In this document: piece after piece, positions 12,854 to 36,496 of the stretch
Position numbering within the stretch: position 1 is the stretch's first letter
Layout: every line of letters starts with the position of its first letter
Assembly (NCBI GenBank): GCA_017429325.1
Contig: JAFRPC010000028.1
Coordinates: 2,376 to 66,375, forward strand
Direction: 5' to 3'
DNA: 64,000 nucleotides
From: Oscillospiraceae bacterium
GTDB taxonomy: Bacteria > Bacillota > Clostridia > Oscillospirales > Oscillospiraceae
The notes under the pieces: model-generated
What the model was told of the DNA's origin: nothing
The model's input: only the letters and a program-made list of their open reading frames with translations
Database searches by the model: none
Translations under genes and position numbers: made by a program

Positions 12854-14035
12854 TTACTCGTCCTCGAGGAGAGTGATGACGAACTCGGTGGTCAGCAGTT
12901 CCTCCGGGTCGCTCTCAAAATAATAAGTCATCGTGAGGAAGGGCAAAATGTCCGCATAGCCGAAATAGACGCTGAAGCTGTCGGCCCGGAGCCCCCGGAT
13001 CACAACGGTGTCGTTCTCCACGTTGGAGCAGAGATAGGAAATGAGCTCCGGCACGTCGTCTGCGTCGGGCATCCGCACGGTCCCGTCGGGGACGGCCTGC
13101 GCCCGGGTGATATAGTTGTTCCCCCGCACCACAGTCCCGTCTGGCCAGACCGTCACGGTGAAGCAGTGGCCGCTCAGATCGTCGAGGGTGCTGTCGCCGC
13201 AGAGGACCGGCGCCGAAAGGCCCTCCTGGAGCTCCAGCAGGAGGCGGCTGTGTTCCGCGGAGCGGAAGGTGTAGACCACGGCGGGCACATGGACGTCCTG
13301 AAATCCGCTGCTGCGCTCGTCGTGATAGTCCTGCGTTTCGTCTGCGGCCTTGACCAGCTCCAGCGCTCCGGTAATGCCGGAAAAGCGGCTGACAAAGTCC
13401 CGCGCCGCCTGCTCCATGGCCGCCCGGTCGGTTATGGGTTGCTCCGTCATCTCCAAAATCCGGTCAAAGCCCGGATAGAGGTCGAAGGTAAAGCGCCCCG
13501 TGATGGAGGAACCGGAAACCGACGCACGGCCCACCGGGGCCTCCATAAACCAGTTGGCGTAGCCGTCGTGGGGCGAATCCTCCTCGACACTCAGCGCGTC
13601 CCCGCAGTCCAGAGCCACCCGCACGTAGTCCGCCAGCAGCTCCACGTAGGTCTCGGCCTCCCGGAACTGCTCGTAACGGTATTTGTTCAGGCTGCCGGTC
13701 TGTTGGATGGCGCCGTCAGAGAGCCGATAGTTCTCCACCGGGTACTCCGGCGGCCACGCCTCCTCCCAGCCCTCCGGCTCGCCGCCGGAGGCCGTTTCAG
13801 TGGTCGCGGGAGTGGATTCGGCAGCGGAGGTGGTTTCAATGTCCCCCGGCGTCGCTTCGACGGTTGCTGGCGTTGTTTCGAGGTTTTCCGGCGTCGCTTC
13901 GGCGGCAGCAGGTGCGGTCGGCGCAGGGGTCTCCCCGTTCACCTGCCGGGTCTCCGTCTGCCCCGCCCCGGACGCACAGCCCGCCAGCAGGCAGAGGGCC
14001 GCCAGCGGGGCAAAAAGTCTAATGGTGGTTTTCAT
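12854..14035 (-). CDS. Lipoprotein, function unknown
   Basis: A signal peptide with a lipobox (LLAGC) is followed by a low-complexity T/A/E/P linker. Confidence 0.6.
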   Translation of the reverse strand: MKTTIRLFAPLAALCLLAGCASGAGQTETRQVNGETPAPTAPAAAEATPENLETTPATVEATPGDIETTSAAESTPATTETASGGEPEGWEEAWPPEYPVENYRLSDGAIQQTGSLNKYRYEQFREAETYVELLADYVRVALDCGDALSVEEDSPHDGYANWFMEAPVGRASVSGSSITGRFTFDLYPGFDRILEMTEQPITDRAAMEQAARDFVSRFSGITGALELVKAADETQDYHDERSSGFQDVHVPAVVYTFRSAEHSRLLLELQEGLSAPVLCGDSTLDDLSGHCFTVTVWPDGTVVRGNNYITRAQAVPDGTVRMPDADDVPELISYLCSNVENDTVVIRGLRADSFSVYFGYADILPFLTMTYYFESDPEELLTTEFVITLLEDE

Positions 14036-14584: not shown

Positions 14585-15022
14585 TCACGCATGAAGCTGC
14601 TGATACTTCTCGAGATCTGAATTCAGTTTTTTTGCTTCCGCAGAGTCCTTCAGCCACAGGAAGAGATTCGCCAGGACAAAGATGACCAGGACGCTTCCCG
14701 CGACCACAAGGACGACCTCTGCGCGGTCCGAGTCAATGCTGGGGCTGGTGAACGCGATTCCCAGCATCACCGCCTCGATGAGGACGAGCATCAGCGCCTT
14801 GCGGAAGAGCAGCGCTTTTGGGGAGAGCTCCCGCTTGGACCAGGTAACAAAGGTGGGCAGCATACACAGCAAGGCGTATTTGAGCGGCAGCAGCATGGTT
14901 TTGTAGCCGAAGCGTGCGCCGTCGTCAAAGGAGGAGCCGACCAGGGCGACTGCCACAGTGATCAGCGTTGACAGGGTAAAGAACAGGATTAGCTTATTGA
15001 CAAGAAAGCGTTTGAATTCCAT
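14585..15022 (-). CDS. Small 4-TM membrane protein (DUF3021-like partner of LytTR regulators)
   Basis: It has four hydrophobic helices and lies 4 nt after the LytTR gene. This pairing is common in Firmicutes. Confidence 0.55.
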   Translation of the reverse strand: MEFKRFLVNKLILFFTLSTLITVAVALVGSSFDDGARFGYKTMLLPLKYALLCMLPTFVTWSKRELSPKALLFRKALMLVLIEAVMLGIAFTSPSIDSDRAEVVLVVAGSVLVIFVLANLFLWLKDSAEAKKLNSDLEKYQQLHA

Positions 15023-15026
15023 GATA

Positions 15027-15464
15027 TTATCCTTTCAGCGCGTCTTTCAGCGCTTTTACGTAGTTCCTCGAAATAATGACCTTTTCCCCGGAGCGGAGGA
15101 GGGCCAGGAAACGCCCGTTGAAAGCGGGCTGGAGGGATTGGATCTTCATCAGGTTGACCAGCATGGGCTTTGAAATTCGGAGAAACTGCTTGGACCTCAG
15201 GAGCTCCTCCAGCTCGTAGAGCCGGTAGGCGGTCTCGTAGACCCGGTCATTCGTGTAGAGGAAGGTCTTGCCGTCCACAGACTCAATATAGCAGATATCC
15301 GTCACGGCAATCTCATACTGTCTGGCCTCCGAGACGCAGGAAAGGCTGCCCTGTCTGGATTTGACAAAGGCCTCGATTTCCCGGACCTCCTCCGTAATCT
15401 CGCGGCAGCGGATCAGAACCAGCTCTTCGCCCGTTGTTCCGATTTGTTCGATACGCACGTCCAT
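15027..15464 (-). CDS. LytTR-family DNA-binding protein
   Basis: The sequence ICYIESVDGKTFLYT...FLRISKPMLVNL...ISRNY is typical of LytTR domains. Confidence 0.8.
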   Translation of the reverse strand: MDVRIEQIGTTGEELVLIRCREITEEVREIEAFVKSRQGSLSCVSEARQYEIAVTDICYIESVDGKTFLYTNDRVYETAYRLYELEELLRSKQFLRISKPMLVNLMKIQSLQPAFNGRFLALLRSGEKVIISRNYVKALKDALKG

Positions 15465-17995: not shown

Positions 17996-18024
17996 TTGAA
18001 CTCCGGTGTTCCGGATGCTATACT
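17996..18024 (+). promoter_or_regulatory. Sigma-70-like promoter (TTGAAC, 17 nt, TATACT) dedicated to the SIR2-STAND gene
   Basis: The hexamers and spacing were read directly. The site lies 36 nt upstream of the ATG at 18060. Confidence 0.55.
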
Positions 18025-18059
18025 GTCTACAGAACAGATAGAAGGGCAGGTGCGGCGGC

Positions 18060-21000
18060 ATGGGCGGGCTCACATTTGATGAGGTCATGAATTTCTATCC
18101 CGGCCACAATTTCGACACCTATCGGGATATTTTGAAGGACAAAAAAAGCGGCGGGCTGCTTCCCTTTGTGGGGGCCGGGCTGTCGGTTTTCTGCGGGTAC
18201 AAGCTCTGGGGCGGCGTCCTTTGGGAACTGGCGGAATATATTTATGACACCAAGCAAAAGCAAGAGGTTTTTGACAAGATCAAGGCGGGCGCTTATGGAG
18301 AGGCCGCGCAGCTTCTGCTGGAGTACTATCCCCCGATGCTGGACCGGCTGCCCCGCCTGATCTCCCCGGACAAGCTCGAAGCCTGCCCGCCGGAAAAGCG
18401 GGTGTTCAGCGCGGCCTATACCCTGCCGCTGCTGTTTCAAACGGGGCTGGTCATCACCACGAACTTTGACCGCGTGCTGGAGGACCTCTACCTGCGCCGG
18501 AGCAAGAAGCCCATTGAGGTCGTGACGCCGAAGCAGCAGGACCGCCTGACGCAGTTCCGCCAAAACGGCGCCCAGTGCCTGTTCAAACTCCACGGCGACA
18601 TCGGAAAAGACGCCGTGGCGCTGGACGACCTGGTGTTTACCGGGGAGCAGTACGACGACAAATACAGGGACGGCGGCCCCCTGGTGCAGGAGCTGACCCG
18701 GTGCTTCGAGAACCGCAGGCTGCTGTTTTTGGGCTGCAGCCTCAACGCCGACCGGACCATGGAGGTTTTGCAGCGGGTCTGCAAGGCGCAGCCGGGCATC
18801 CGGCACTACGCCGTCTTAGGCTGCAAACGGGATGAGGTCCCCAAGCGGCTTGCGGAATTGTATCAGCAGGGGATAGAACCGATCTTCTACGACGACAGCA
18901 ACCACGACGCGGTCCGCGTGATTTTGGAGCGCCTGCTGGAGGACACGGACCCGGCTGCCTACCGGCAGCTCCGCCGAGAGGCCGCAGCCGCGGCTCCGGT
19001 GCCGAGGGAGGAGCGGCGCCTCCTCTTCGACGCGGAATACTTTGCCTTCACGGGCCGGGAGGCGGAGCTGGAAGCCCTGCGCGGCTTCTGCGACGCCCCG
19101 GACTGCGCGAGCTGGTGGGCTGTGACCGGTCCCGGCGGCATGGGCAAGAGCCGCCTGGTCTACGAATTCTCTAAGGAACTGCGGGAGAAGGGCTGGCAGG
19201 TGGAGCGCTTCGAGGCCCGCCCCTCCAAGGACAGCGCCGCCAGCGACCTTGACAATCTGGAGACCTGGGCGCCGGGCTCTGGCCCCACCCTTGTGGTCCT
19301 GGACGACGTGCAGGCCCACATGGAGCTGGTTCTGCGTCGGCTCTCCCTGCTGCTGCGGCAGCCCCGCAGCGAAAAGCTGCGCTTCCTGCTGCTGGAGCGG
19401 GAGGGGGAGGACCGGCGTTCCGCCCCCTGGCTGGGACCCTCCGGGGGCGAGGTGCCGGAGGACTGGCTCTATCAGGAGCGCTTTCTCTGTCTGAAATCCC
19501 TGGGCGACCCGGAGCTGAAGCAGATCATGGACGACTACGCCGCCGCCGCGGGCAAGAAGCTGAACGCGGAACTCCTGCTGGGGACCCTGGAGCGGGTGGA
19601 CCCGAAGCTGAAGCGTCCCCTCTATGCCATCGCCATTGCCGACGCCCGCTGCCAGGGCAAGGACCCCACCAACTGGGACCCGAAGACCGTTCTGGACACC
19701 CTTTTGGCCCGGGAGCTGGCCTTTCATCTGAATCGCTTCCGGGGCATGACCGGAAAGGGCGCTAACAAAACCCAGGAAAAGGAGCTGAAAACCCTGCTGG
19801 CGCGGTCCTGCATCGAAGCCCCCCTCTGGTTGGAGACGCTGGACGCTGAGGCCTGCCCCAAGCTCTGGAAGAAGCTGGAGGACCTGGATATGGACCCGGA
19901 GGAGTTTTTCGGCGGTTTGGGGGTCCTCCGCAGCGTTCAATTGTATCGTGATGAAGTGGATGAAACCGGAAAGATTACCGGCGAGCCGACCCCGAAGCGG
20001 CAGCAGGCCGTCGCCCTCTCCTGCCCGGACCTGCTCAAGGAATATCTGGTCCTGGACCTGGTCTTAGAGCAGATCCGGCAAAAGGCCGAGCCGACGCTGC
20101 TGTTCCCGGAGGGCTGGGAGCAGGACCCCCGCCGCCTGCTGTTCCTGCGGTCGCTGCTGCGGGACCACAGCGACCGGCTCAAGGGCAACACCGTGTTTTG
20201 GGGCAAGGTCCTTCAGGCGGAACCGGGCAACCCCTTCGCGGCCATACTTTACGGACGCCTGTTATGGGGATATGGCGCTGCTTATCCCGACGCCAGAAAG
20301 GCAGCCACAGAACGGCTTGCGCGGCTGTACGAGGCCCAAAATCACGACGCAGACATTGCGCTGTCCTACGCCAGCGCTCTGTTTAACCTGACTATTGAAC
20401 AGAAAGACGAACGCTGCGCCGAACCTGTCTCCCGCCTGGAGGCGCTGTATCAGAAGCATACCGACGTGTCGGAGATTGCAGGAGCGTATGCAAGCGGTCT
20501 GTGCAACCTGACTGCGGTACAGGACGAAGCGGGCCGCGGTGAAATGGTCTCCCGCCTGGAGGCGCTGTATCATAAGCACGCCGACGCACCGGAGATTGCG
20601 GAAGCATATGCAAAGGGCCTGTGCAACCTGACTGCGGTACAGGACGAAGCGGGCCGCGGTGAAACGGTCTCCCGCCTGGAAGCGCTGTACCAGAAGCACG
20701 CCGACGTGCCGGAGATCGCGGAAGCGTATGCAAAGGGCCTGTACAATCTGACTGCGGTACAGGACGAAGCGGGCAGCGATGAAACCGTCTCCCACATGGA
20801 AGCGTTGTACCAGAAGCACGCCGACGTGCCTGGGATTGCGGAAGCGTATGCAATGGGTCTGTGGAAACTGACTGCTGTACAGGACGAAGCGGGCCGCGCC
20901 GAACCTGTCTCCCGCCTGGAAGCGCTGTACCAGAAGCACACCAACGTTCCGGAGATTGCGGAAGCGTATGCAAACGGCCTGGTCTGCCTGGCTGCGGCGC

Positions 21001-21518
21001 AGGACGAGGCGGACTGCGCCAAAACCGTCTCCCGCCTGGAGACCCTGCAGCAAGCCCACGCCGACGCACCGGAGCCGGCGGGCAGGCTTGCGGCAGGCCT
21101 GGTCTGCCTTTCCGCAAAGCAGGCCCTGGAAGCCCGGGCCGGGACCGAGGCGCGGCTGGAGCGGCTGCTGGAGACCCACGCGAAGCAGCCCGCCTTTGCG
21201 GAGGCATACGCCAATGCTCTTATCTCGTGTGCCCTTCATCAGACGAAGGAGACTGAGATTCGTCAGACCCTCTTCCGGTCCCGGCAAATGCTGACCCTGC
21301 ATCCGGAGGATCAGGAGATCCAATTATATCACGCGATGACCTGGTTCAATCTGACCCTGCGGCAGGCAGAGGATGCGATCCCCGCCACGCTCCGGGAGCT
21401 GGCCGCGTACCTGCGGCAGCACGCCGCGGTCATTCCGGAATTCCGGAAGCAATTGGATATTTACTTGTCCGAACATCCGGAACAGCGGGAGCGTTATCAG
21501 CCGCTTTTCGAGCTTTGA
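18060..21518 (+). CDS. SIR2-like (SIR2_2-type) domain, P-loop STAND NTPase and C-terminal 40-aa helical repeat array; candidate Avs/AVAST-like defence protein
   Basis: SIR2_2 blocks: LPFVGAGLS, ITTNFDRVLE, FKLHGDI, LFLGCSLNAD. Walker A is AVTGPGGMGKSRL (~19128-19151) and Walker B is LVVLDDV. About 8 consecutive 40-aa repeats follow (VSRLEALYQKHADVPEIAEAYAKGLCNLTAVQDEAGRGE). Confidence 0.8.
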   Translation: MGGLTFDEVMNFYPGHNFDTYRDILKDKKSGGLLPFVGAGLSVFCGYKLWGGVLWELAEYIYDTKQKQEVFDKIKAGAYGEAAQLLLEYYPPMLDRLPRLISPDKLEACPPEKRVFSAAYTLPLLFQTGLVITTNFDRVLEDLYLRRSKKPIEVVTPKQQDRLTQFRQNGAQCLFKLHGDIGKDAVALDDLVFTGEQYDDKYRDGGPLVQELTRCFENRRLLFLGCSLNADRTMEVLQRVCKAQPGIRHYAVLGCKRDEVPKRLAELYQQGIEPIFYDDSNHDAVRVILERLLEDTDPAAYRQLRREAAAAAPVPREERRLLFDAEYFAFTGREAELEALRGFCDAPDCASWWAVTGPGGMGKSRLVYEFSKELREKGWQVERFEARPSKDSAASDLDNLETWAPGSGPTLVVLDDVQAHMELVLRRLSLLLRQPRSEKLRFLLLEREGEDRRSAPWLGPSGGEVPEDWLYQERFLCLKSLGDPELKQIMDDYAAAAGKKLNAELLLGTLERVDPKLKRPLYAIAIADARCQGKDPTNWDPKTVLDTLLARELAFHLNRFRGMTGKGANKTQEKELKTLLARSCIEAPLWLETLDAEACPKLWKKLEDLDMDPEEFFGGLGVLRSVQLYRDEVDETGKITGEPTPKRQQAVALSCPDLLKEYLVLDLVLEQIRQKAEPTLLFPEGWEQDPRRLLFLRSLLRDHSDRLKGNTVFWGKVLQAEPGNPFAAILYGRLLWGYGAAYPDARKAATERLARLYEAQNHDADIALSYASALFNLTIEQKDERCAEPVSRLEALYQKHTDVSEIAGAYASGLCNLTAVQDEAGRGEMVSRLEALYHKHADAPEIAEAYAKGLCNLTAVQDEAGRGETVSRLEALYQKHADVPEIAEAYAKGLYNLTAVQDEAGSDETVSHMEALYQKHADVPGIAEAYAMGLWKLTAVQDEAGRAEPVSRLEALYQKHTNVPEIAEAYANGLVCLAAAQDEADCAKTVSRLETLQQAHADAPEPAGRLAAGLVCLSAKQALEARAGTEARLERLLETHAKQPAFAEAYANALISCALHQTKETEIRQTLFRSRQMLTLHPEDQEIQLYHAMTWFNLTLRQAEDAIPATLRELAAYLRQHAAVIPEFRKQLDIYLSEHPEQRERYQPLFEL
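20301..21260 (+). repeat. 120-bp tandem coding repeats (about 8 copies; the 5 central copies at 20401-21000 are near-identical)
   Basis: The period is exactly 120 nt. The block aggacgaagcgggc...g(a/g)a..gtctccc(g/a)c(c/a)tgga recurs at 20521, 20641, 20761, 20881 and 21001. I counted about 10 mismatches in 120 nt between the copies starting at 20521 and 20641. Confidence 0.9.
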
Positions 21519-21532
21519 TGGCACATAACACA

Positions 21533-21566
21533 AAAACGGCAGTCGCACGGGGCGATTGCCGTTTTT
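21533..21566. terminator. Bidirectional intrinsic terminator
   Basis: The stem is aaaacggcagtcgc / gcgattgccgtttt, with an A-tract before and a T-tract after. It lies between convergent genes. Confidence 0.75.
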
Positions 21567-21595
21567 GCGTTCGGGGAGCAGAGGAGGATTCCGGT

Positions 21596-22444
21596 TCAGC
21601 AGTTCCCGGTATAGACGAAGCGCAGGGCTTCCCGTGCGACCTCCGCCAGGCGGTAGACGGTTTTCACGTCGGTGGCCTGTCGGTCCTGCATTTGATACCG
21701 CGGGAAGAATCGGGAAATGTGGAGGGGAATTTCTTCCCCGTCGGCGCTTTCCAACCGGCTGACCCACTGAGACAGCTCCCGCATTTCCGCTTCGCTGTCG
21801 TTTTCCCCCGGGACCACCAAGGTCGTCAGCTCCACGTGACAGCTTCTGGCCGCAGCCTGGATGAAGGCCAGAACCTGGCTTCGGCTGCCGCCGAGGACCT
21901 GGCTGTAGTATCGGTCGGTAAAGCCCTTCAGGTCGATGTTCATCGCGTCGATATACGGGGCCAGCGCGTCCAGGACAGACAGCTCCGCAGTTCCGTTTGT
22001 CACCAGGACCGTCTTCAGCCCCTTGGCTTTGGCGAGCCGGGCCGTGTCCCGCACAAACTCATATCCGATGAGCGGTTCATTGTAGGTGAAGGCGATGCCG
22101 AGATTCCCCCTTTGGCGCGTCGCCAGGGCGAGCTCCGCCAGCGCCTCGGGGCGGATCGTATCCGCCGTCTGCGCAGAGCGTCTGGCCTGCTCCGACCAGG
22201 AAATCTCGTTATTCTGGCAGAAGGGGCAGCGGAGATTGCAGCCAAAACTGCCGACAGACAGAATCATGCTGCCGGGGAAAAACCGCGCCAGAGGCTTTTT
22301 CTCGATGGGGTCCAGGGCGAGAGCGGTGATCCGTCCATAGTTCAGCGCCTCCACGCGGCCATTTTTTGCAATACGACCGCCGCAAAAGCCGATCTGCCCC
22401 TCCGCGAGCTTACAATGTCTGAAGCAAACGCCGCATTCTGCCAT
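21596..22444 (-). CDS. AmmeMemoRadiSam system radical SAM enzyme
   Basis: The CNLRCPFCQN (CxxxCxxC) cluster is present. The N-terminal CFRHCKL..GFCG motif is typical of this family. An AGGAGGGAG RBS precedes the ATG at 22444. Confidence 0.85.
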   Translation of the reverse strand: MAECGVCFRHCKLAEGQIGFCGGRIAKNGRVEALNYGRITALALDPIEKKPLARFFPGSMILSVGSFGCNLRCPFCQNNEISWSEQARRSAQTADTIRPEALAELALATRQRGNLGIAFTYNEPLIGYEFVRDTARLAKAKGLKTVLVTNGTAELSVLDALAPYIDAMNIDLKGFTDRYYSQVLGGSRSQVLAFIQAAARSCHVELTTLVVPGENDSEAEMRELSQWVSRLESADGEEIPLHISRFFPRYQMQDRQATDVKTVYRLAEVAREALRFVYTGNC

Positions 22445-26155: not shown

Positions 26156-27463
26156 TTACTTACCGGACACCGTCACGCCGTCGAAGGCGATGAAGGGCAG
26201 GCTGCAGGTGCCGTCCCGCAGGACCTCGCTGCTGATGGCACGGACGGTTTTCAGCATGTCCGCGATGCAGCCGCTGATCATGGTCTCGGTCAGCGCGGTC
26301 ACAAGCTTGCCGTTTTCAATGAGGAAGCTGTTCTTGGCCACGCCGGAGAATTCTCCGCTGGGCGACGGCTCGCCGCCGGAGAAGCGCATGACCAGCACGC
26401 CCCGCTCGATCCCGGAAATGATCTCGTCCAGAGACTTGCCCCCGGCGGGAACGTGGGGATAGGGGCACCAGCCGGTGCAGCCGCCCCGGACGCCGCCGGT
26501 CTTGTTGGCGCCGTACTGTGTCAGGGCGAAGCCTGTCAGTCTGCCGTCCCGGATAATATCGTAGTCCTCGGCGCGGTAGCCCTCGTCGGTGAAGCGCTCC
26601 CCTGCCACCACGTCGGCAGCCCGGGGGGCGAAGCGCAGGCTCAGTTGCTCATCGGCGACCTGCTGGCCCAGCTTGTCCTTCCAGATGCTGGTCCCGTCGA
26701 TGAGGGCGTTCTCCCCCACGAAGTTCCAGTTGACCGTGCTGAGCACTAACTCGAACAGGGCCCCGGGAGCCAGGAGCACGGTGCCGGTGAACTTCCCCTC
26801 CAGAGGCTTGCTGTCCACCTGGCGCTCCACGGAGCTGAGTTCCCATTCGATCAGGGCGCAGTCGATGAAGGGCTTGTCCAGATCGGCAAGCTTCGTTTCG
26901 CCGTAGTAGAAGCTGCTCGCCTTCTCCCCCTCGTGGGCGGAATAGGTCAGGGTGAAGTTGTAGCCGCCCTCCGCGGTGCGGCAGCTGACGCCGGCGCTGT
27001 TTTTCAGGACGGTGCGGGTCGCCTTGTGCTCCGTGTACAGTTCCTCGATGATGATCCTGGGATGGCGGGCGGCGATGTCCTCCGCCAGCTCCCGGGTCCG
27101 GGCGAAGAGGCCCTCGGCGTCGCAGACCAGGGGACCTTCCGTGAAGCTCTCGTCTCTGGGCTCGCTGTCGAACTCCCAGGCGTCGTCCGGCTCCGCGCTC
27201 TCGGCGGAGGCGATGCAGTCGGCCACGGCCTTGCGAAGGGCCTCGTCCTCAAAGCTGTTGACGGAGATTGTGCCCTTGCGCCGGTCCTTCAGCACGGAGA
27301 GCTCCACGCTGCGGTCAAACAGCGTCCGCATCAGGGAGAACTCGTTGCCGAGCATATTGAACTCGTGGGTCTCGGTCTCTTTCACAACACATTGGGCGAA
27401 CTGGGCACCGGATTCCTTCGCCGCGTCCAGCACGCGCTGTGCAAGCTGTTCCAGTTTTTCCAT
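26156..27463 (-). CDS. pmbA: PmbA/TldE-like metallopeptidase subunit
   Basis: It has the family layout and lacks HExxxH. The ATG at 27463 has a GGAGGAAG RBS and lies 1 nt after the tldD stop. The track's TTG start at 27478 is less likely. Confidence 0.8.
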   Translation of the reverse strand: MEKLEQLAQRVLDAAKESGAQFAQCVVKETETHEFNMLGNEFSLMRTLFDRSVELSVLKDRRKGTISVNSFEDEALRKAVADCIASAESAEPDDAWEFDSEPRDESFTEGPLVCDAEGLFARTRELAEDIAARHPRIIIEELYTEHKATRTVLKNSAGVSCRTAEGGYNFTLTYSAHEGEKASSFYYGETKLADLDKPFIDCALIEWELSSVERQVDSKPLEGKFTGTVLLAPGALFELVLSTVNWNFVGENALIDGTSIWKDKLGQQVADEQLSLRFAPRAADVVAGERFTDEGYRAEDYDIIRDGRLTGFALTQYGANKTGGVRGGCTGWCPYPHVPAGGKSLDEIISGIERGVLVMRFSGGEPSPSGEFSGVAKNSFLIENGKLVTALTETMISGCIADMLKTVRAISSEVLRDGTCSLPFIAFDGVTVSGK

Positions 27464-27464
27464 C

Positions 27465-28847
27465 TTATCTTCCTCCAATCATGACCTTGCAGCGAAGGGC
27501 GGGACCGCCAAGTCCCACCGGCATCGGCTGCTTTTTGCCGCAGAAGCCGGAGCTCTCCCACTCGACCTGGTCGCTGACCATATCGACGGTCTTGAGCATT
27601 TCAAAGGCGACGCCGGAGATGGTAGTGTCCAGCAGTGCGCGGCCCAGCTTTCCGTTTTTGATCTCATAACCCATGGTAATGCCGAACATGAACTCGCCGG
27701 TGGTGTCCGCCTGTCCGTTGTTGGTGGAGATCAGGTAATAGCCCTCGTCCACGGAGGCGATCATGTCTTCTAACTTGTCCTTGCCGGGGTGGATGGCGGT
27801 GTTGCGCATCCGGATCAGCGGCTCGTCGGAGAAGAGCCAGGCCCGGGCGTTGCCGCAGGGCTCCATGCCAAAGCGCTGGGCGCTCTCGCGGCTGTGCATA
27901 TAGCCGGTCAGAATACCGTTTTCAATGATCTTCGCGTCCCGGGCCAGGGTGCCCTCGTCGTCCACGAAAACGGGCAGGGGGCAGCGCTTCCCGAAGGCGG
28001 TGTGGGCGAAGTCGGTCAGCGACACCAGCTCGCTGGCGACAGGCTTGCCCAGACAGCGGCCCGCCACGCTTCCGCCCAGGACCAGGTCGGCTTCCACGGT
28101 GTGGCCCACGGCCTCGTGGGACAGTATACCGGTCAGCTCCCCGCCCAGGATCACGGTCCGCAGACCCGCGTCGGCGTACACGCCTTCGCGCTTCTGCATG
28201 AGCCGTTCATAGAGCCGGTCGATATCCTGGAAATAAGCCGCCGGGTCGGTGAAATTGAGGTCGAAGGTCCGCTCGCCGCCGAAGGCATGGTACAGCTCCA
28301 CCGGCGTCCCCGCGTCGGTCTCGGCGGTCATATACACGTAGACGTAGGAGCGGGGCAGGACGGTGTGGGCGTCCGTGCCGTCGGAGACGACCAAAAGCTT
28401 CTCCATGGAGTCCTCCGTCGCGTAGATGCGGCGGCTGACCAGCTTGGGGCAGTGCTCCGCGATGTAGTTGTCCAGGGCTCGCGCAAAGTCCGTGTAGACG
28501 CGCTGGGCCGGGTCGTGGATGGCCTCGCAGACGACGCGGCCGGCGGGCAGGGACGGCAGAGCCGGTTTCCTGCCGGGGGCGTGGGCGTTCATAAAGGCAG
28601 CGTTTTCCGCCGCAGCCCGGAGCACCCGCTCCGCGGCCTCGGCGCTGCACTCCGCCATGGAGGAGAAGCCGTAGCGTCCGCCGCGGTAGACCCGGGCGCT
28701 GACGCCCGCGATGTCCGAGCGATTGTTTTCTACAATATCCCCCGCCAGCAGCATGACGTTCCGCTTGCGGTTCCGCTGCATCCGCAGCTCGGTATGCGCG
28801 CCGGGTTCAAACAGGGCTTTCTTTGCAGAGATAAGGTCTTGTAACAT
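27465..28847 (-). CDS. tldD: TldD-like metallopeptidase
   Basis: The HEAVGH (HExxxH) motif is present. The C-terminal GxC...GGP region is typical of TldD. Confidence 0.85.
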   Translation of the reverse strand: MLQDLISAKKALFEPGAHTELRMQRNRKRNVMLLAGDIVENNRSDIAGVSARVYRGGRYGFSSMAECSAEAAERVLRAAAENAAFMNAHAPGRKPALPSLPAGRVVCEAIHDPAQRVYTDFARALDNYIAEHCPKLVSRRIYATEDSMEKLLVVSDGTDAHTVLPRSYVYVYMTAETDAGTPVELYHAFGGERTFDLNFTDPAAYFQDIDRLYERLMQKREGVYADAGLRTVILGGELTGILSHEAVGHTVEADLVLGGSVAGRCLGKPVASELVSLTDFAHTAFGKRCPLPVFVDDEGTLARDAKIIENGILTGYMHSRESAQRFGMEPCGNARAWLFSDEPLIRMRNTAIHPGKDKLEDMIASVDEGYYLISTNNGQADTTGEFMFGITMGYEIKNGKLGRALLDTTISGVAFEMLKTVDMVSDQVEWESSGFCGKKQPMPVGLGGPALRCKVMIGGR

Positions 28848-32077: not shown

Positions 32078-34054
32078 TTAATCGTCTTTCAATTCCTTTT
32101 CGAGGATCTTGTCTACAAAACCGAAGAGCTTGTCTTCGACCTTGTATGCGAGGGGATTGGAGCCGTTGAACATCGCGGCGGCGCAGAGCTCCTCCTTCAA
32201 AGACAGGATCCAGTAGGCGAGAAAGCATTCGTTTCCGCCGGTGTGGCCCACAATTTCGGGATTCTTGTCGTCCATGCCGATGCACAGACCGTAGCCGTTC
32301 CGCATCGGCGTCACCATGCGCCGGGCTGTCTCCTGCTTCAGCAGGCCGCCCTCGCGGTAACTCTTGGACAGGGCGGCGCCCAGCTTGACCAGCTCCGTGG
32401 GCGTGGTCCAGAGGCCCGCGGCGGCGTGCTCCGGATAGTAGTGCCAGCCGTGGGCGGGGTCCTCCTTCTGTGCGAGTCTGCCGCCGAAGGCCGCGTTCTC
32501 CACAAGGGCTTCGTCCAGGGGCTGGAAGAAGCCGGTCCGGGTCAGGCCGAGAGGCTCTGCGATCTCGGTTTGGAAGGCCTCGCGCAGGGTCGTGCCGGTG
32601 ATACGCTCAAAAGCCAGTTGGGCCAGGATGATGCCGCCGCCGGAGTACATGTGCTGTTTGCCATAGGGCTTGATCCGGCGGATGCGCGGCGTGTTGCCCT
32701 TGCCGCTCAGCACATCCTCCAGGCTGAGAGGCGCGTGGTCCGCCCGGTAGCCAGGGAAGCCGTGGACGTTGAAGCCCGCCGTGTGGCTGAGCAGGGCGGC
32801 GAAGGTCACGGGGCCCTTGACAAACTCCGGCACGACGCCGGAGATGTCCGCGTCCAGGTCGATGAGGCCCTTGTCCACATAGCGCAGCAGGGTCATGGCG
32901 AACATGGGCTTGCTGATGGAGGCCGCCTGGAAGAGGGTTTCCGGGTCCACCGGGCAGTCCTCCCCGAAGCGCCTGCTGCCGGAACAGTAGGTGTCCGCAC
33001 CTTCTCCGTCGCCGATGGCGATGCTGACGCCGTAGCCCCGCCTGCCCCGGAGCCGCAGCATGTTGTCCAGGTCTTCGCCGTAGAAGGTTTTGACGGTCTT
33101 GTTCGGGCCCTTGAGCATCCGCATCAGCACGGCTTCGTCGCCGCAGATGGCTCCGGTCTTCCGGAAGCCGGCTTTCTGATAGACGTGCAGGCCGCACTCG
33201 TTCTCCGGCTCGGTGGACAGATAGAGCCGGTCCGCACCGTTGTCTTTGAAATATTGGATGATCTCCCGCAAGGCGGCCTGGCCGAAGCCCTTGCCCTGCT
33301 CGTTCTGGTCGATCATGAAGCGCCAGAGCCAGTAGCGCTCCGACAGGTCCTTCTCCTCCGGGTCAAAGGAGAACATGCAGAAGCCCACGAGCCGGTCGCC
33401 GCTGTAGATGGCGAAGGGCCGCGCATAGCCCGGATGCTCCGCGTTGGCCTCGTCGGCCTGCCGCAGAGAGACGTCATTGGGGGCGACAAAGGGCTGGTCC
33501 TCCCGGACGGAGAGACGGAGCACCGCCTCGCGGTTGCTCTCGTCGATGGGCCGGAGCTCCACCAGGGGCGTGACCTTCTCCTCGTCTCCGCTGAGATCGA
33601 CGCGGAGGGCCTGGGCCGTGGTGAAGCCCAGCCTGTCATAGATGCGCTTGGCCTTTTTGTTCCATTCCACTACGCTGAGGGTGATGGGCTCGTCATTCTG
33701 TTCCCGGATCCGCTCCATGCCCCAGAGCATGAGCTTCGTGCCGAAGCCCTGATTCCGATACTCCTTTGCGACCACTAAGTTGTCCAGCTCGTTGCCGTAG
33801 ACGCCGACTGAGCCGATGAGCTTCCCGTCCCGGACAAGCAGGTATACGCAGGGGACCTCTTCCTCCTGGAGCGCCTCTAAGCCTTCCATGCAGTCCCAGG
33901 GCTCGACTCGGATGGCCTTCCGCAGGGGGCGATAGCCCTCGTTCATGATGCGCCGGTATTCGGAAAAATACGTTCCGTCGTAGGGGATGCACGCGATGCC
34001 GCTCTTCTCAAAGCCGCTCCCCCTGTATTCCATTTCAAAAACAGTGAATGACAT
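32078..34054 (-). CDS. Tri-domain fusion: GNAT, GNAT and beta-lactamase-fold serine hydrolase (first gene of the operon)
   Basis: GNAT 1 has VAKEYRNQGFGTKLMLWGMERI and GNAT 2 has MIDQNEQGKGFGQAALREIIQYF. The hydrolase domain has ASISKPMF (SxxK), YSGGG and HTGG. Confidence 0.85.
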   Translation of the reverse strand: MSFTVFEMEYRGSGFEKSGIACIPYDGTYFSEYRRIMNEGYRPLRKAIRVEPWDCMEGLEALQEEEVPCVYLLVRDGKLIGSVGVYGNELDNLVVAKEYRNQGFGTKLMLWGMERIREQNDEPITLSVVEWNKKAKRIYDRLGFTTAQALRVDLSGDEEKVTPLVELRPIDESNREAVLRLSVREDQPFVAPNDVSLRQADEANAEHPGYARPFAIYSGDRLVGFCMFSFDPEEKDLSERYWLWRFMIDQNEQGKGFGQAALREIIQYFKDNGADRLYLSTEPENECGLHVYQKAGFRKTGAICGDEAVLMRMLKGPNKTVKTFYGEDLDNMLRLRGRRGYGVSIAIGDGEGADTYCSGSRRFGEDCPVDPETLFQAASISKPMFAMTLLRYVDKGLIDLDADISGVVPEFVKGPVTFAALLSHTAGFNVHGFPGYRADHAPLSLEDVLSGKGNTPRIRRIKPYGKQHMYSGGGIILAQLAFERITGTTLREAFQTEIAEPLGLTRTGFFQPLDEALVENAAFGGRLAQKEDPAHGWHYYPEHAAAGLWTTPTELVKLGAALSKSYREGGLLKQETARRMVTPMRNGYGLCIGMDDKNPEIVGHTGGNECFLAYWILSLKEELCAAAMFNGSNPLAYKVEDKLFGFVDKILEKELKDD

Positions 34055-35062: not shown

Positions 35063-36496
35063 ATGAAAGCACCCTTTTCTCCCTATCTGGACGCCCTCGC
35101 ACCCGGAATGAAGGCGCTGGCGGACATCCTGGGCAGGTCCTTTGACTATGTGAGCATCCTGTCCACCGATTCTGTCGGCTTCACCGTCTCCATCTCCCAG
35201 CGGAGCAAGCGCGTCACCGGAACCAACATGACCACCGAGCGCGGCAACGTCGTCCGCGTCTGGCGGAACGGTCAGTACAGCGAATACGCCTTCAACGAAG
35301 TGTCGGGAAGCATCGAGGAACTGGCCGAGACCATCCGCAAGGAGCTGGACCGCCAGTTCGCGGTCCTGGCGCTGACCGGCACGAAGGCCTTCGACACCCC
35401 CATCCTTGCGGACGAACCCCTGGAGCTCTTTGTGGAAAAAGAGACTGAACGCCTGCCCGAGCAGGAGGATATGGCGGCTCTGGTGGAGCGCTTCACCGGC
35501 CTGTCCGCCCGCGGGATGGAGACCATTCCCCGGGCTCTGGACTGCCTTCTGAACGCCTCCTCCACCCACATCTGCAAGATGTTCCTCACCAAAAACCGCT
35601 TCCTGCGCCAGAGCTACGTCTACACGGAAGGCAGCTGCGCGGCATACGCGCCGAACGACGCCGGGGAGATCAAGTTCGCATACAACGGGGTCTCCGGCTG
35701 CTGCGGTCCCGAGGTGCTGGAGGGCCTGAAGAAGGTCGTCGAGGAGCTGCCGAAGACCATGGAGGAGATGCTCGCCTCCGAGAAGATCGTCCCCGGTGAG
35801 TACGAGATCATCACCGACCCCGGCATCAGCGGCCTGATCGCCCACGAGGCCTTCGGCCACGGCGTCGAGATGGATATGTTTGTGAAGAAGCGCGCCTTGG
35901 GCGCCGAATACATCGGCAAGCGCGTGGGCTCCGACCTGTGCACCATGCACGAGGGCGCCCTCTGCGAGGAGAGCGTCACCGCCTACGCCTTCGACGACGA
36001 GGGCACCCTGGCCGGCGACGTGACCGAGATTGACCACGGCATCCTGAAGACCGGCATCTGCGACGCCCTGGCCGCCCTGCGGCTGGGCACGGTGCCCACC
36101 GGCAACGGCAAGCGGGAGAACTTCGCCCACAAGGCATACACCCGCATGACCAACACCATTTTCGACTCCGGCGACAGTACCTTTGAGGAAATGGTCGCCT
36201 CTGTCAAGCACGGGTATCTGCTGCGGGGCACCGAGAGCGGCATGGAGGACCCCAAGCACTGGGGCATCCAGTGCATCATCGCCCGGGGCTACGAGATCAA
36301 GGACGGCGCCTTCACCGGCAAGGTGGTCTCCCCCGTGGTCATGACCGGCTACGTGCCGGATCTGCTGGGCGGCATCTGCATGGCCTCCCGGGACCGCAAG
36401 GTGGACGGCAACGGCGGCTGCGGCAAGGGCCACAAGGAATGGGTCAAGGTGGCCGACGGCGGCCCCTATCTGAAAACGAAAGCGAGGCTGGGATAA
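35063..36496 (+). CDS. tldD: TldD-like metallopeptidase (second copy)
   Basis: The HEAFGH (HExxxH) motif is present, and the C-terminal GGCGKG region is typical. Confidence 0.85.
   Translation: MKAPFSPYLDALAPGMKALADILGRSFDYVSILSTDSVGFTVSISQRSKRVTGTNMTTERGNVVRVWRNGQYSEYAFNEVSGSIEELAETIRKELDRQFAVLALTGTKAFDTPILADEPLELFVEKETERLPEQEDMAALVERFTGLSARGMETIPRALDCLLNASSTHICKMFLTKNRFLRQSYVYTEGSCAAYAPNDAGEIKFAYNGVSGCCGPEVLEGLKKVVEELPKTMEEMLASEKIVPGEYEIITDPGISGLIAHEAFGHGVEMDMFVKKRALGAEYIGKRVGSDLCTMHEGALCEESVTAYAFDDEGTLAGDVTEIDHGILKTGICDALAALRLGTVPTGNGKRENFAHKAYTRMTNTIFDSGDSTFEEMVASVKHGYLLRGTESGMEDPKHWGIQCIIARGYEIKDGAFTGKVVSPVVMTGYVPDLLGGICMASRDRKVDGNGGCGKGHKEWVKVADGGPYLKTKARLG

What the first reader, a model, noticed from the sequence alone, without database searches (positions are those of the whole stretch)
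18060..21518. Stand-alone SIR2, STAND NTPase and repeat-sensor protein with its own promoter and terminator: candidate NAD-depleting antiviral STAND
Seen in sequence: the N-terminus carries SIR2_2-type blocks (VGAGLS, TTNFD with the catalytic Asn, KLHGD with the catalytic His, FLGCSL.D). A P-loop NTPase follows (GPGGMGKS, then LVVLDD). About 320 aa of 40-residue helical repeats come last. The gene has a dedicated TTGAAC-17-TATACT promoter and a bidirectional terminator. It is wedged between unrelated housekeeping-type genes (a thioesterase and the AmmeMemoRadiSam genes).

Established knowledge: SIR2-like NADase effectors fused to STAND NTPases with TPR-like sensors are the architecture reported for one AVAST/Avs class (SIR2-STAND). 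SIR2 effectors also act in Thoeris, DSR and pAgo systems.

Inference: this is a single-gene abortive-infection sensor. I cannot tell from sequence whether it belongs to the described Avs clade or to a distinct lineage. The unusual repeat sensor argues for a closer look.
Basis: partly seen in the sequence, partly recalled or inferred. Interest (0 to 1): 0.75.

Follow-up and report, generated by a model that had tools for sequence, protein, structure and literature searches.

The report
SIR2-STAND immune sensor, shuffling repeats
This gene from a gut/rumen Oscillospiraceae bacterium most likely encodes a one-protein antiviral alarm that destroys the cell's NAD+ when its repeat "antenna" binds an invader; the architecture is known (Avs5-like), but the ATPase lineage differs and the antenna varies between strains in a way best known from fungal immune receptors.

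Summary
ORF 18060-21518 (+) encodes 1152 aa. It has a significant SIR2_2 domain whose N135 and H178 align to the catalytic N112/H152 of ThsA. A P-loop NTPase follows, with invariant Walker A and B motifs and a confidently modelled NBD-HD-WHD fold. The C-terminus holds about 11 helical-hairpin repeats of 40 aa, so about 440 aa rather than 320. A strong bidirectional terminator follows the stop codon. The promoter match is no better than chance.

The protein is not an Avs5 orthologue. It scores 25.6 bits against a cutoff of 1000 on the NCBIfam Avs5 model, and its NTPase belongs to nSTAND5, whereas characterised Avs5 proteins carry nSTAND3. It works like Avs5; the best structural matches are the Avs5 filament, SAMD9 and DSR2. 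The family has at least 480 members. Full-length members among species-representative genomes are all Clostridia, and databases call them only "SIR2 family protein". There is no conserved partner gene. Effectors and sensors are swapped within the NTPase clade.

The most interesting result concerns strains of one species. Their flanks are 99-100% identical, yet the sensor is only 85% identical. Variation falls on 12 fixed positions per repeat, and alleles of 1112, 1152 and 1392 aa differ by whole repeat units.

No experiment supports any function. Verdict: a new variant of a known kind, of moderate interest.

The parts
17996..18024 (+). Promoter-like site TTGAAC-17 nt-TATACT with TG upstream of the -10 element, 35 nt before the ATG
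   Evidence: One search found one site where 0.8 is expected by chance. One search shows the sequence. Function is not shown.
18041..18052 (+). Purine-rich putative ribosome-binding region (AGAAGGGCAGGTG) upstream of the ATG
   Evidence: Read directly from the sequence. This is inference.
18060..21518 (+). Complete CDS of 1152 aa, identical to GenBank MBQ6160063.1 'SIR2 family protein [Oscillospiraceae bacterium]'
   Evidence: The exact protein occurs on 22 metagenomic contigs in the same synteny.
18060..18959 (+). SIR2_2 NADase-type effector domain (aa 1-300). It contains the Rossmann GAGxS motif (aa 38-42), catalytic N135 (nt 18462-18464) and catalytic H178 (nt 18591-18593). No CxxC zinc-ribbon motif is present.
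   Evidence: Pfam gives E=2e-24. PADLOC matches LmuA-type SIR2 and ThsA. Alignment to BcThsA pairs N135 with N112 and H178 with H152. The residues are invariant in the family. The model has pLDDT of about 85-94.
19047..19469 (+). P-loop nucleotide-binding domain of the STAND module (aa about 330-470). It contains Walker A GPGGMGKS (aa 357-364, nt 19128-19151), Walker B LVVLDD (aa 411-416, nt 19290-19307) and invariant E446-R447 after strand 4, a sensor-1-like position.
19470..20192 (+). Helical domain plus winged-helix domain of the NOD module (aa about 471-711). It has an invariant R519-P520-x-Y522-A523 motif, which resembles the GxP/'GLPLA' motif, and an invariant P656-D657 after the wing hairpin.
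   Evidence: The AF2 NTPase-module model has pLDDT 89.3 and pTM 0.82. Foldseek matches NRC3, ORC1/Cdc6, SAMD9 and MalT. The motif equivalences are inferred.
20193..21515 (+). C-terminal alpha-solenoid sensor (aa 712-1152), made of about 11 helical-hairpin units of 40 aa
   Evidence: helix pairs throughout, pLDDT about 90. No canonical TPR/Sel1/PPR Pfam profile matches at E<=1.
20416..21040 (+). Core array of near-identical 120-bp (40-aa) units. Hypervariable unit positions are 10, 17, 18, 21, 24, 25, 28, 29 and 35-38. Copy number differs between alleles.
   Evidence: TRF reports 5.2 copies at 85% match. Alleles are compared. A 46-nt exact repeat at 20499/20619 is the site of the one-unit deletion.
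21531..21567 (.). Bidirectional intrinsic terminator hairpin (16-bp stem, 5-nt loop, flanked by an A-run and a T-run), shared with the convergent radical-SAM gene
   Evidence: dG -29.7 kcal/mol, z -6.2; 0 of 200 shuffles fold as well.

Best explanation
The gene encodes a stand-alone, NLR-like antiviral (or anti-mobile-element) STAND receptor with a SIR2 NADase effector. The proposed mechanism has five steps.

(1) At rest the protein is autoinhibited. The nSTAND5-type NOD module (NBD-HD-WHD) holds a nucleotide through Walker A K363/S364 and Walker B D415/D416.

(2) A foreign protein, most likely a phage protein, binds the C-terminal solenoid of 40-aa helical hairpins. Binding is on the solvent-exposed stripe formed by the hypervariable repeat positions 17/18/21/24/25/28/29 and 35-38.

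(3) Binding releases the NOD module for oligomerisation into a tetramer or filament, as in Avs5, ThsA and FAM118B. This brings SIR2 domains into an active arrangement.

(4) SIR2, using N135 and H178, hydrolyses NAD+. The cell's NAD+ is depleted and the infection aborts.

(5) Recognition specificity evolves quickly through unequal recombination between the 120-bp units and through substitutions at the hypervariable positions.

What is shown here: the domain identities, the conservation and alignment of the catalytic and nucleotide-binding residues, the fold, single-gene mobility between contexts, module swapping within the clade, and the allelic repeat polymorphism. What is inferred: the ligand, the oligomeric state, NAD+ hydrolysis and the defence phenotype.
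For: SIR2 effector:
- SIR2_2 matches at E=2e-24.
- N135 and H178 align to BcThsA N112 and H152 and are invariant in the family.
- Sequence and structure matches are to immune SIR2 NADases: ThsA, DSR2, KomC, Avs5 and FAM118B.
- The closest SIR2 domains outside the family are stand-alone genes inserted between hsdS and hsdR of Type I R-M operons.

STAND module:
- Walker A and B motifs are invariant.
- 41 of 49 sampled clade relatives match nSTAND5.
- The NBD-HD-WHD model has pLDDT 89 and pTM 0.82, with top hits to NRC3/NRC2/NRC4, ORC/Cdc6, SAMD9 and MalT.

Whole architecture:
- The best PDB match of the full model is the Avs5 filament 9nc9 (E=4e-12), followed by SAMD9.
- Avs5 is an experimentally shown NADase activated by phage proteins and filamentation (PMC11897194; bioRxiv 10.1101/2025.07.08.663546).

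Conflict-system signature:
- The same NTPase plus sensor occurs with Metallophos or unknown N-termini. SIR2 plus this NTPase occurs with LRR or 42-aa TPR sensors.
- Homologues sit in unrelated contexts without a conserved partner. One Lachnospiraceae lineage lies beside a methyltransferase plus a PLD/helicase gene.

Rapidly evolving sensor:
- Flanks are 99-100% identical while the gene is 87-98% identical.
- The sensor is 85% identical at the protein level against 96% for aa 1-710.
- pN/pS is 0.92 at 12 hypervariable repeat positions and 0.16 elsewhere.
- Alleles of 1112, 1152 and 1392 aa occupy the same locus.
Against: - There is no experimental evidence for NADase activity or phage defence for any member of this family.
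- At this locus the gene is not in a defence island.
- It was present in every contig of the species that spans the site, so it does not behave like a typical accessory gene.
- The Pfam nSTAND5 hit is below the gathering threshold in this protein.
- pN/pS at the variable positions does not exceed 1, so diversifying selection is not demonstrated.
- The 1112-aa and 1392-aa alleles are each seen on a single short-read contig.
- No relative was found in phage genomes, and no trigger can be proposed.
Confidence: 0.7

Rival explanations
1. It is simply an Avs5 (AVAST type 5) orthologue, that is, a member of the already characterised family.
For: It has the same three-part layout of SIR2, STAND NTPase and helical repeats. 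The Avs5 filament 9nc9 is the best Foldseek match of the full-length model. Weak Avs5 HMM hits exist.
Against: The NCBIfam Avs5 equivalog scores 25.6 bits against a cutoff of 1000 and covers only aa 169-287. The PADLOC Avs5 hit (E=2.9e-6) covers only aa 169-242, inside SIR2. Characterised Avs5 proteins carry nSTAND3, PF20720. This protein and its listed homologues carry nSTAND5 and never nSTAND3. With the NTPase module alone, Avs5 is not among the top 50 structural matches. Avs5 is reported mainly from Gram-negative phyla, whereas full-length relatives of this family among species-representative genomes are all Clostridia.
Confidence: 0.07
2. It is a non-immune regulatory STAND protein. In this reading the SIR2-like domain acts as a protein deacylase or ADP-ribosyltransferase, or binds NAD-derived metabolites, under control of an endogenous ligand, as part of the core physiology of the bacterium.
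For: The gene lies among metabolic and housekeeping genes. It was present in every sampled contig of the species that spans the site. Non-defence STAND clades are interspersed with defence clades (PMC13581612). Homologue P0009 sits between bacA and mreB/maf/mraZ.
Against: The SIR2 domain belongs to the SIR2_2 family, and its nearest relatives are ThsA, DSR2, KomC, Avs5 and R-M-embedded SIR2 genes. It lacks the CxxC zinc-ribbon motifs of deacetylase sirtuins, as read directly from the sequence. No neighbour is conserved across lineages. Effector and sensor swapping and a sensor that diverges about 10 times faster than its flanks are hard to reconcile with recognition of a constant endogenous ligand.
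Confidence: 0.1
3. It is a self/non-self or inter-strain conflict receptor. It would sense proteins delivered by competing bacteria or carried by plasmids and conjugative elements rather than phages, by analogy with fungal high-internal-conservation NLRs that mediate allorecognition.
For: The evolutionary regime matches fungal het-type NLRs: near-identical repeats, repeat-number polymorphism and hypervariable surface positions. Several distinct alleles are maintained at one locus within a species.
Against: All experimentally characterised bacterial SIR2-STAND, DSR and ThsA systems respond to phage infection. There is no secretion-system or mobile-element context at this locus. No evidence for such recognition exists in unicellular Clostridia.
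Confidence: 0.1

Closest known systems
Avs5 / AVAST type 5 (EfAvs5, EcAvs5, PaAvs5-1/2/3; PDB 9JAP, 9nah/9nc9)
   Same: It is a single polypeptide with an N-terminal SIR2_2 NADase-type domain, a central STAND NOD and a C-terminal alpha-helical repeat sensor. It is the best structural match of the full-length model. The expected logic is the same: ligand binding, then oligomerisation, then NAD+ depletion.
   Different: The NTPase lineage differs: nSTAND5 here, nSTAND3 in Avs5. Avs5 profiles match only the SIR2 core and fall far below threshold. The protein is larger (1152 aa against about 770-850). The sensor is a regular 40-aa array with high internal conservation rather than degenerate TPR/Sel1/PPR repeats. 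The host range is Clostridia rather than mostly Gram-negative phyla.
Human SAMD9/SAMD9L and bacterial Avs9-type analogues
   Same: They share the order SIR2-like domain, then P-loop NTPase, then TPR-like repeats. Foldseek gives E=2e-10 for the full model and 3e-6 for the NTPase module alone.
   Different: This protein has no SAM, AlbA_2 nuclease or OB-fold domains. SAMD9 acts through the AlbA_2 site, whereas here SIR2 is the only candidate effector.
DSR2, ThsA and KomC (stand-alone or differently regulated SIR2 NADases of anti-phage systems)
   Same: The SIR2_2 catalytic core is homologous and has the same Asn/His pair. DSR2 also uses a C-terminal alpha-solenoid to bind a phage protein.
   Different: None of these has a STAND NTPase. 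ThsA is activated by a small-molecule signal through a SLOG domain, and DSR2 by direct binding of the tail-tube protein without an NTPase switch.
Fungal NLRs with high-internal-conservation TPR/ANK/WD repeats (for example Podospora NB-ARC/TPR and NACHT/WD genes; PMC4986451)
   Same: A STAND NTPase is joined to repeat units (42 aa in fungi, 40 aa here) that are about 80-90% identical to each other. Both show repeat-number polymorphism between alleles and variability concentrated at a few positions on one helix face.
   Different: This is a bacterial protein with a SIR2 effector and an nSTAND5 rather than NB-ARC/NACHT NTPase. Positive selection is not statistically shown here. For bacterial NLRs this regime had only been suggested, and NLR-like architectures were reported as rare or absent in Firmicutes.
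nSTAND5 clade (Pfam PF25199) of prokaryotic conflict-system NTPases
   Same: The NTPase module belongs to this clade. 41 of 49 sampled relatives match the profile, and some homologues reach the gathering score, for example P0247 at 35.0 bits.
   Different: The clade is heterogeneous: sensors include LRR, TPR and PPR repeats, and N-termini include kinase, Metallophos, SIR2 or unknown domains. The SIR2 plus 40-aa-repeat subfamily is one branch found in Clostridia. I found no dedicated model or name for it in PADLOC 2.0 or NCBIfam 20.

Membership tests
Avs5 (AVAST type 5) | Full-length match to the curated Avs5 model (NCBIfam NF041814 equivalog, cutoff 1000 bits; PADLOC Avs5 HMM) | tested here: not met
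   NCBIfam gives 25.6 bits over aa 169-287 only. PADLOC Avs5 gives E=2.9e-6 over aa 169-242 only.
Avs5 (AVAST type 5) | NTPase of the nSTAND3 type (PF20720), as reported for PaAvs5-1/2/3 | tested here: not met
   No nSTAND3 hit appears at E<=1, and nSTAND5 matches instead. None of the 120 listed homologues carries PF20720.
Avs5 (AVAST type 5) | N-terminal SIR2 effector and C-terminal helical-repeat sensor in one polypeptide | tested here: met
Avs5 (AVAST type 5) | Phage-triggered NAD+ hydrolysis and filament formation | not testable with these tools
   This requires biochemistry and cryo-EM. It is known for EfAvs5 and PaAvs5.
STAND NTPase superfamily (NLR-like) | P-loop NTPase with Walker A GxxxxGK[ST] and Walker B hhhhDD | tested here: met
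   GPGGMGKS at aa 357-364 and LVVLDD at aa 411-416. The key residues G357, G359-G360, G362-K363-S364 and D415 are invariant, and D416 is >=90% conserved.
STAND NTPase superfamily (NLR-like) | NBD-helical domain-winged helix (NOD) architecture | tested here: met
   The AF2 model of aa 316-711 has pLDDT 89.3 and pTM 0.82. Foldseek top hits are NRC3 (3.5e-8), ORC1/Cdc6, SAMD9, NRC2/4 and MalT. TM-scores are only 0.35-0.44 because subdomain orientations differ.
STAND NTPase superfamily (NLR-like) | Profile membership in a named STAND clade above the curated threshold (nSTAND_NTPase5, GA 34 bits) | tested here: inconclusive
   The window protein scores 30.1 bits, below 34. Relatives reach the threshold, for example P0247 at 35.0 bits. 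Hits at E<=1e-5 are recorded for P0108 and P0102. 41 of 49 clade members match at E<=1e-3.
STAND NTPase superfamily (NLR-like) | Combinatorial exchange of N-terminal effectors and C-terminal superstructure-forming repeats within the clade | tested here: met
   N-termini seen are SIR2, Metallophos, kinase or unknown. Sensors seen are the 40-aa repeats, LRR_5, TPR_12/TPR_10 and PPR.
Defence-type SIR2 NADases (Pfam SIR2_2; ThsA, DSR, Avs5, SIR2-HerA effectors) | PF13289 match above the gathering score | tested here: met
   86.7 bits against 24.5, E=2e-24.
Defence-type SIR2 NADases (Pfam SIR2_2; ThsA, DSR, Avs5, SIR2-HerA effectors) | Catalytic Asn and His at the positions of BcThsA N112 and H152 | tested here: met
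   The phmmer alignment to 6lhx_A pairs N135 with N112 and H178 with H152. Both residues are invariant in the family. That N112 and H152 are the catalytic residues is from my knowledge of the ThsA literature. The PDB entry names 'DSR2 H171A' and 'KomC(H146N)' show that the His of this motif is targeted in catalytic mutants.
Defence-type SIR2 NADases (Pfam SIR2_2; ThsA, DSR, Avs5, SIR2-HerA effectors) | NAD+ hydrolase activity | not testable with these tools
   An enzyme assay is required.
High-internal-conservation (HIC) repeat NLRs, fungal type | Repeat units about 80-90% identical to one another | tested here: met
   TRF reports 85% matches at the DNA level over 5.2 units. The maximum adjacent-unit protein identity is 0.88. 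41 of 121 family members reach >=0.70.
High-internal-conservation (HIC) repeat NLRs, fungal type | Repeat-number polymorphism between alleles of one locus | tested here: met
   Alleles of 1112, 1152 and 1392 aa lie between the same flanking genes. The one-unit deletion maps onto a 46-nt exact repeat. Caveat: the 1112-aa and 1392-aa alleles are each seen on a single contig.
High-internal-conservation (HIC) repeat NLRs, fungal type | Positive (diversifying) selection at surface positions of the repeat | tested here: inconclusive
   pN/pS is 0.92 at the 12 hypervariable positions and 0.16 at the other 28. The ratio is elevated but not above 1, and only four alleles (22 unique units) were available.

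The most novel reading that the evidence does not exclude
This family may be a bacterial NLR-like receptor whose specificity is diversified by repeat shuffling. A cassette-like array of near-identical 40-aa units carries a hypervariable binding stripe. Unequal recombination reshuffles, expands and contracts the array within a single species. The result would be allele-specific recognition of variable invader proteins, as in fungal and plant NLRs. This contrasts with the conserved-fold 'pattern recognition' described for Avs1-21. It occurs in unicellular gut/rumen Clostridia, where NLR-type architectures were thought to be rare.
Probability: 0.35. Interest if true: 0.7.

Novelty: new variant of a known kind. 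Interest (0 to 1): 0.5.

Why it matters
SIR2-STAND immunity is experimentally understood only for Avs5, which has an nSTAND3 NTPase and comes mostly from Proteobacteria. This locus shows the same effector logic built on a different NTPase lineage (nSTAND5), in anaerobic gut and rumen Clostridia. No current defence-annotation model names this family, so it is missed in microbiome defence-system censuses.

The more interesting point is population-level. The sensor is a cassette array that differs between strains in unit number and at a fixed set of exposed positions, while the surrounding chromosome is 99-100% identical. If confirmed, that gives a tractable bacterial system for testing how repeat shuffling re-tunes immune-receptor specificity. 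The idea is established for fungal NLRs and has only been hypothesised for bacterial ones. The regular 40-aa units with defined variable positions would also be attractive as a designable binding scaffold.

Tried and rejected
(1) Avs5 membership was tested with NCBIfam, PADLOC and Pfam nSTAND3 and rejected.

(2) I searched for an 'empty site', meaning strains lacking the gene between the thioesterase and radical-SAM genes. I used look-ups of the thioesterase, a beta-lactamase variant, an AMMECR1 variant and the radical-SAM protein. None was found. P0292 led to a different genomic arrangement (no AMMECR1/radical-SAM neighbours) that was uninformative.

(3) A sensor-only search of the 5.8-billion-protein set (aa 712-1152) returned no scored hit, probably because repetitive words swamped candidate selection. 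I replaced it with a local phmmer search against the proteins already fetched.

(4) tblastn against phage genomes found no match. Against plasmids it found only partial SIR2-only or NTPase-only matches.

(5) I tried to check whether MBQ6160063.1 or its clade appears in the supplementary tables of the 589-clade STAND survey. The supplements are not held, and the main text does not mention SIR2 or Clostridia.

(6) The QRB Discovery paper on repeat-protein discovery does not mention STAND, SIR2 or TPR.

(7) Rfam and tRNA scans of the window gave nothing.

(8) I considered assembly collapse as the source of the copy-number variants. It is judged unlikely for the 1112-aa allele, because the longest exact internal repeat is 46 nt, well below k=141, and the deletion junction lies exactly on it. 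It cannot be excluded for the singleton contigs.

(9) The long antisense ORFs across the gene (for example 18816-19940 and 20262-21323 on the minus strand) are dismissed as GC-rich frame artefacts.

Full report
**Observation.** The window contains an ORF at 18060-21518 (+) of 1152 aa. Pfam gives a clear SIR2_2 match (aa 130-275, E=2e-24, 86.7 bits against a cutoff of 24.5). It also gives a near-threshold match to nSTAND_NTPase5 (aa 344-457, 30.1 bits against 34) and weak generic AAA hits on the P-loop. Tandem Repeats Finder reports a 120-bp period with 5.2 copies at 85% match over 20416-21040. Laid out in a 40-aa register, the repeats run from aa 712 to the C-terminus. That is about 11 units: 5-6 near-identical core units flanked by degenerate ones, so about 440 aa rather than 320. 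The TTGAAC-17-TATACT site at 17996-18024 exists and has a TG before the -10 element, but one site was found in the scanned region where 0.8 is expected by chance. The thioesterase gene upstream lies on the same strand only 69 nt away, and no terminator-like site was found between them. An own promoter is therefore plausible but unproven. The hairpin after the stop codon (21531-21567) is a strong bidirectional terminator, with a 16-bp stem, dG -29.7 kcal/mol and z -6.2. The neighbours are a FlK-type thioesterase, an Rce1-like protease, a PAF-AH-like hydrolase, a LytTR regulator and, convergently, the AmmeMemoRadiSam radical-SAM and AMMECR1/LigB genes. The rest of the 64-kb window encodes metabolic and housekeeping functions. 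It has no tRNA, no Rfam RNA and no clearly recognisable second defence system; a single unmapped PADLOC 'mad2' hit was not followed up.

**Identity and source.** The protein is identical to GenBank MBQ6160063.1, 'SIR2 family protein [Oscillospiraceae bacterium]', from a MAG. The exact sequence occurs on 22 metagenomic contigs with the same synteny. One allele comes from a cow-rumen metagenome.

**SIR2 domain.** In a phmmer alignment to BcThsA (6lhx), N135 pairs with N112 and H178 pairs with H152. To my knowledge these are the catalytic residues of ThsA. The PDB entry names 'DSR2 H171A' and 'KomC(H146N)' show that the equivalent His is the residue mutated to inactivate related NADases. G38-A39-G40, N135, D137 and H178 are invariant or nearly invariant in 60-121 homologues. 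There is no CxxC pair of the kind that forms the zinc ribbon of deacetylase sirtuins, as read directly from the sequence. PADLOC ranks the domain closest to SIR2-type LmuA (1e-14) and ThsA (4.5e-13). PDB sequence hits are FAM118B, ThsA, a 769-aa 'SIR2 family protein' (9nah, same sequence as the AVAST5 filament entry 9nc9), DSR2 and KomC. Outside the family, the closest SIR2 domains (30-35% identity) are stand-alone proteins of about 340 aa inserted between hsdS and hsdR of Type I restriction-modification operons in Onishia and Paenibacillus. This is independent guilt-by-association evidence that this SIR2 subfamily works in defence.

**NTPase module.** Walker A (G357-S364), Walker B (D415/D416), E446-R447 after strand 4, an R519-P520-x-Y522-A523 motif and P656-D657 are invariant across the family. 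An AlphaFold2 model of aa 316-711, built with the family alignment, is confident (pLDDT 89.3, pTM 0.82). It shows a five-stranded P-loop domain, a helical domain and a winged helix with a beta-hairpin wing. Its best PDB matches are tomato NRC3 (3.5e-8), ORC1/Cdc6, RuvB, RFC, SAMD9, NRC2/NRC4 and MalT. This is a STAND/AAA+ NOD module. Avs5 is not among the top 50 matches for this module alone. An exhaustive HMMER search with aa 317-706 finds 1,896 representative clusters at E<=1e-3 and 419 at E<=1e-10. Of 49 sampled relatives with different N-termini, 41 match nSTAND_NTPase5, and only 5 match nSTAND3, weakly (best E=2.6e-4).

**Whole protein.** The full-length model is confident (pLDDT 87.2, pTM 0.60). 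It shows the SIR2 domain, a short disordered linker (aa 313-316), the NOD module and an uninterrupted array of helix pairs. Foldseek against the PDB ranks the AVAST5 filament 9nc9 first (4e-12), then human SAMD9 (2e-10), DSR2, ThsA and KomC. Global TM-scores are low (about 0.2), as expected for flexible multidomain proteins. These hits support a shared architecture rather than a rigid superposition.

**Relation to Avs5.** Characterised Avs5 proteins combine SIR2 (PF13289), nSTAND3 (PF20720) and TPR/Sel1/PPR repeats. They hydrolyse NAD+ when activated by a phage protein: JADA of jumbo phages or gp1.7 of T7. EfAvs5 is activated by filamentation. The present protein fails the sequence-based membership tests. 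It scores 25.6 bits against 1000 for the NCBIfam equivalog, and the PADLOC Avs5 HMM matches only inside SIR2. It has no nSTAND3 match, and nSTAND5 is recorded in most of the 120 listed homologues. It therefore works like Avs5 but is not a member. It represents a parallel assembly of a SIR2 effector on another STAND lineage.

**Family and modularity.** At least 480 relatives were found, mostly unnamed proteins from metagenomes. Among species-representative genomes, full-length relatives occur only in Clostridia: Lachnospiraceae, Oscillospiraceae, Christensenellaceae, Roseburia and Oscillibacter. There are 27-28% identical SIR2-plus-NTPase relatives in Anaerolineae. Homologues lie in unrelated neighbourhoods, for example bacA/mreB/mraZ. 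One Lachnospiraceae lineage sits next to Fic, AIM24, an HTH gene and a methyltransferase plus a PLD/ResIII helicase gene. No partner gene is conserved. This fits a single-gene system. Within the NTPase clade, the same NTPase and 40-aa sensor are joined to a calcineurin-like phosphoesterase (P0247), to unknown N-termini of 160-220 aa (P0209, P0234, P0192) or to none (P0150). SIR2 plus this NTPase is joined to BspA-type LRRs (P0155), to 42-aa TPR_10/12 repeats (P0249) or to unrecognised sensors. Such combinatorial exchange is the hallmark of immune STANDs (PMC13581612). No relative was found in 50,697 phage records, and only partial matches were found on plasmids.

**The sensor and its population genetics.** A second allele, P0001, occupies the same locus in other samples. 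It appears on L085 and L086, with identical sensors on L101 and L102, so on four contigs in all. Across 17 kb the flanks are 99-100% identical, but identity inside the gene falls to 87-93% over 20100-21600. Gene-wide dS is 0.11, rising from 0.06-0.07 in the SIR2 and NTPase parts to 0.18 in the repeats. dN/dS is 0.32 for SIR2, 0.08 for the NTPase, 0.42 for the helical/WH region and 0.46 for the repeats. Protein identity is 96% over aa 1-710 and 85% over the sensor. Two further alleles at the same locus are 1112 aa (L092) and 1392 aa (L093). L092 is identical to the window allele apart from the loss of exactly one unit. L093 has 12 core units where the window allele has 6. The one-unit deletion junction lies on the longest exact internal repeat, 46 nt at 20499/20619. 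That is far shorter than the k=141 used for these assemblies, so unequal recombination is more likely than assembly collapse. Both length variants are nevertheless singletons.

Among the 22 unique core units, variability is confined to positions 10, 17, 18, 21, 24, 25, 28, 29 and 35-38 of the unit, in the register R1-L2-E3-A4-L5-Y6. pN/pS is 0.92 at these positions and 0.16 at the other 28. Positions 17/18/21/24/25/28/29 follow an i, i+1, i+4, i+7, i+8, i+11, i+12 spacing within the second helix of each hairpin. They should therefore form one exposed stripe; this is inferred, because I could not inspect the model coordinates. The 40-aa period is found in 106 of 121 homologues. Adjacent-unit identity of at least 70% is found in 41 of 121, even though orthologues are only 40-57% identical. 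Units are more similar within a protein (0.57-0.70) than between proteins (0.36-0.66), which indicates concerted evolution or repeated re-expansion. Other 90% clusters also contain length variants, several differing by 40 aa or a multiple of it. This regime is the one described for fungal NLRs: repeats with high internal conservation, repeat-number polymorphism and hypervariable surface sites (PMC4986451). For bacterial NLRs it had been noted and hypothesised, while NLR architectures were described as rare or absent in Firmicutes (bioRxiv 10.1101/2020.01.06.895854).

**Mechanism (best explanation, confidence about 0.7).** The protein is a resting, nucleotide-bound STAND receptor. An invader protein binds the variable stripe of the solenoid. 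NOD-driven oligomerisation follows and activates SIR2, which depletes NAD+ and aborts the infection. The domain identities, key residues, fold, modularity and sensor polymorphism are shown here. The ligand, the oligomeric state, the NADase activity and the phenotype are inferred from Avs5, DSR2 and ThsA.

**Rivals.** Three alternatives were considered: a true Avs5 orthologue (about 0.07, since the membership tests fail), a non-immune regulatory STAND-sirtuin (about 0.1) and an inter-strain or anti-plasmid recognition receptor (about 0.1). The non-immune reading is suggested by the housekeeping context and by the gene's presence in all sampled contigs spanning the site. It is contradicted by the defence-type SIR2, the module swapping and the fast-evolving sensor.

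**Novelty and verdict.** The architecture and its logic are known, and the large 2026 STAND survey may already contain this clade in tables I could not read. The protein is not a member of Avs5. It has no dedicated model in PADLOC 2.0 or NCBIfam 20. It combines a different NTPase lineage with a cassette-like, intraspecifically polymorphic sensor. I rate it a new variant of a known kind, with interest 0.5. The most novel reading not excluded is allele-specific recognition generated by repeat shuffling in a bacterial NLR-like protein (probability about 0.35, interest about 0.7 if true).

Noticed in passing
L021 9815-10846 (Onishia niordana) and L031 9803-10822 (Paenibacillus sp. FA6): Stand-alone SIR2_2 genes of about 340 aa, the closest SIR2 relatives of the window protein outside its family, sit between the hsdS and hsdR genes of Type I restriction-modification operons. 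This looks like an R-M-embedded NADase module, comparable to other defence genes nested in hsd loci.
   Followed up: partly
L088 13217-16293 and L090 13409-16464 (Lachnospiraceae homologue loci): Directly downstream of the SIR2-STAND homologues P0108 and P0102 lies a small methyltransferase gene overlapping a gene of about 835 aa with PLDc_2, ResIII and Helicase_C domains. Fic, AIM24 and HTH_26 genes lie upstream. This may be a small defence islet in that lineage.
   Followed up: no
L101 10344-12443 and L102 9400-11469: Two independent contigs end inside the SIR2-STAND gene, after about 690-700 C-terminal residues, within the NTPase region. This may be an assembly-graph break caused by coexisting alleles in the sample.
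   Followed up: partly
window 14585-15464 (-): A LytTR-domain regulator of 145 aa (15027-15464) is followed by a 145-aa multi-pass membrane protein (14585-15022) that has no Pfam family on record. The pair is conserved in all strains, and its function was not examined.
   Followed up: no
window 26156-28847 (-) and 35063-37770 (+): There are two separate PmbA/TldD metallopeptidase gene pairs within 10 kb of each other. Several GNAT acetyltransferases and beta-lactamase-fold (serine hydrolase) genes lie around them, including a GNAT-GNAT-beta-lactamase fusion at 32078-34054.
   Followed up: no
window, one of the 32 ORFs scanned (not mapped to an ORF): A single PADLOC hit to 'mad2' (E=5.6e-23) was found among the other window ORFs. 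I did not determine which ORF it is or whether it reflects only a generic domain.
   Followed up: no
window 18816-19940 (-) and 20262-21323 (-): Long antisense ORFs of 374 and 353 aa run across the SIR2-STAND gene, and the second is itself repetitive. They are typical of GC-rich coding regions and are probably not genes.
   Followed up: no
window 12854-14035 (-): A 393-aa ORF has a lipoprotein-like N-terminus (LAGC) and a Thr/Glu/Ala/Pro-rich low-complexity region. It has no Pfam family on record and lies in the most GC-rich part of the region (0.64-0.66).
   Followed up: no
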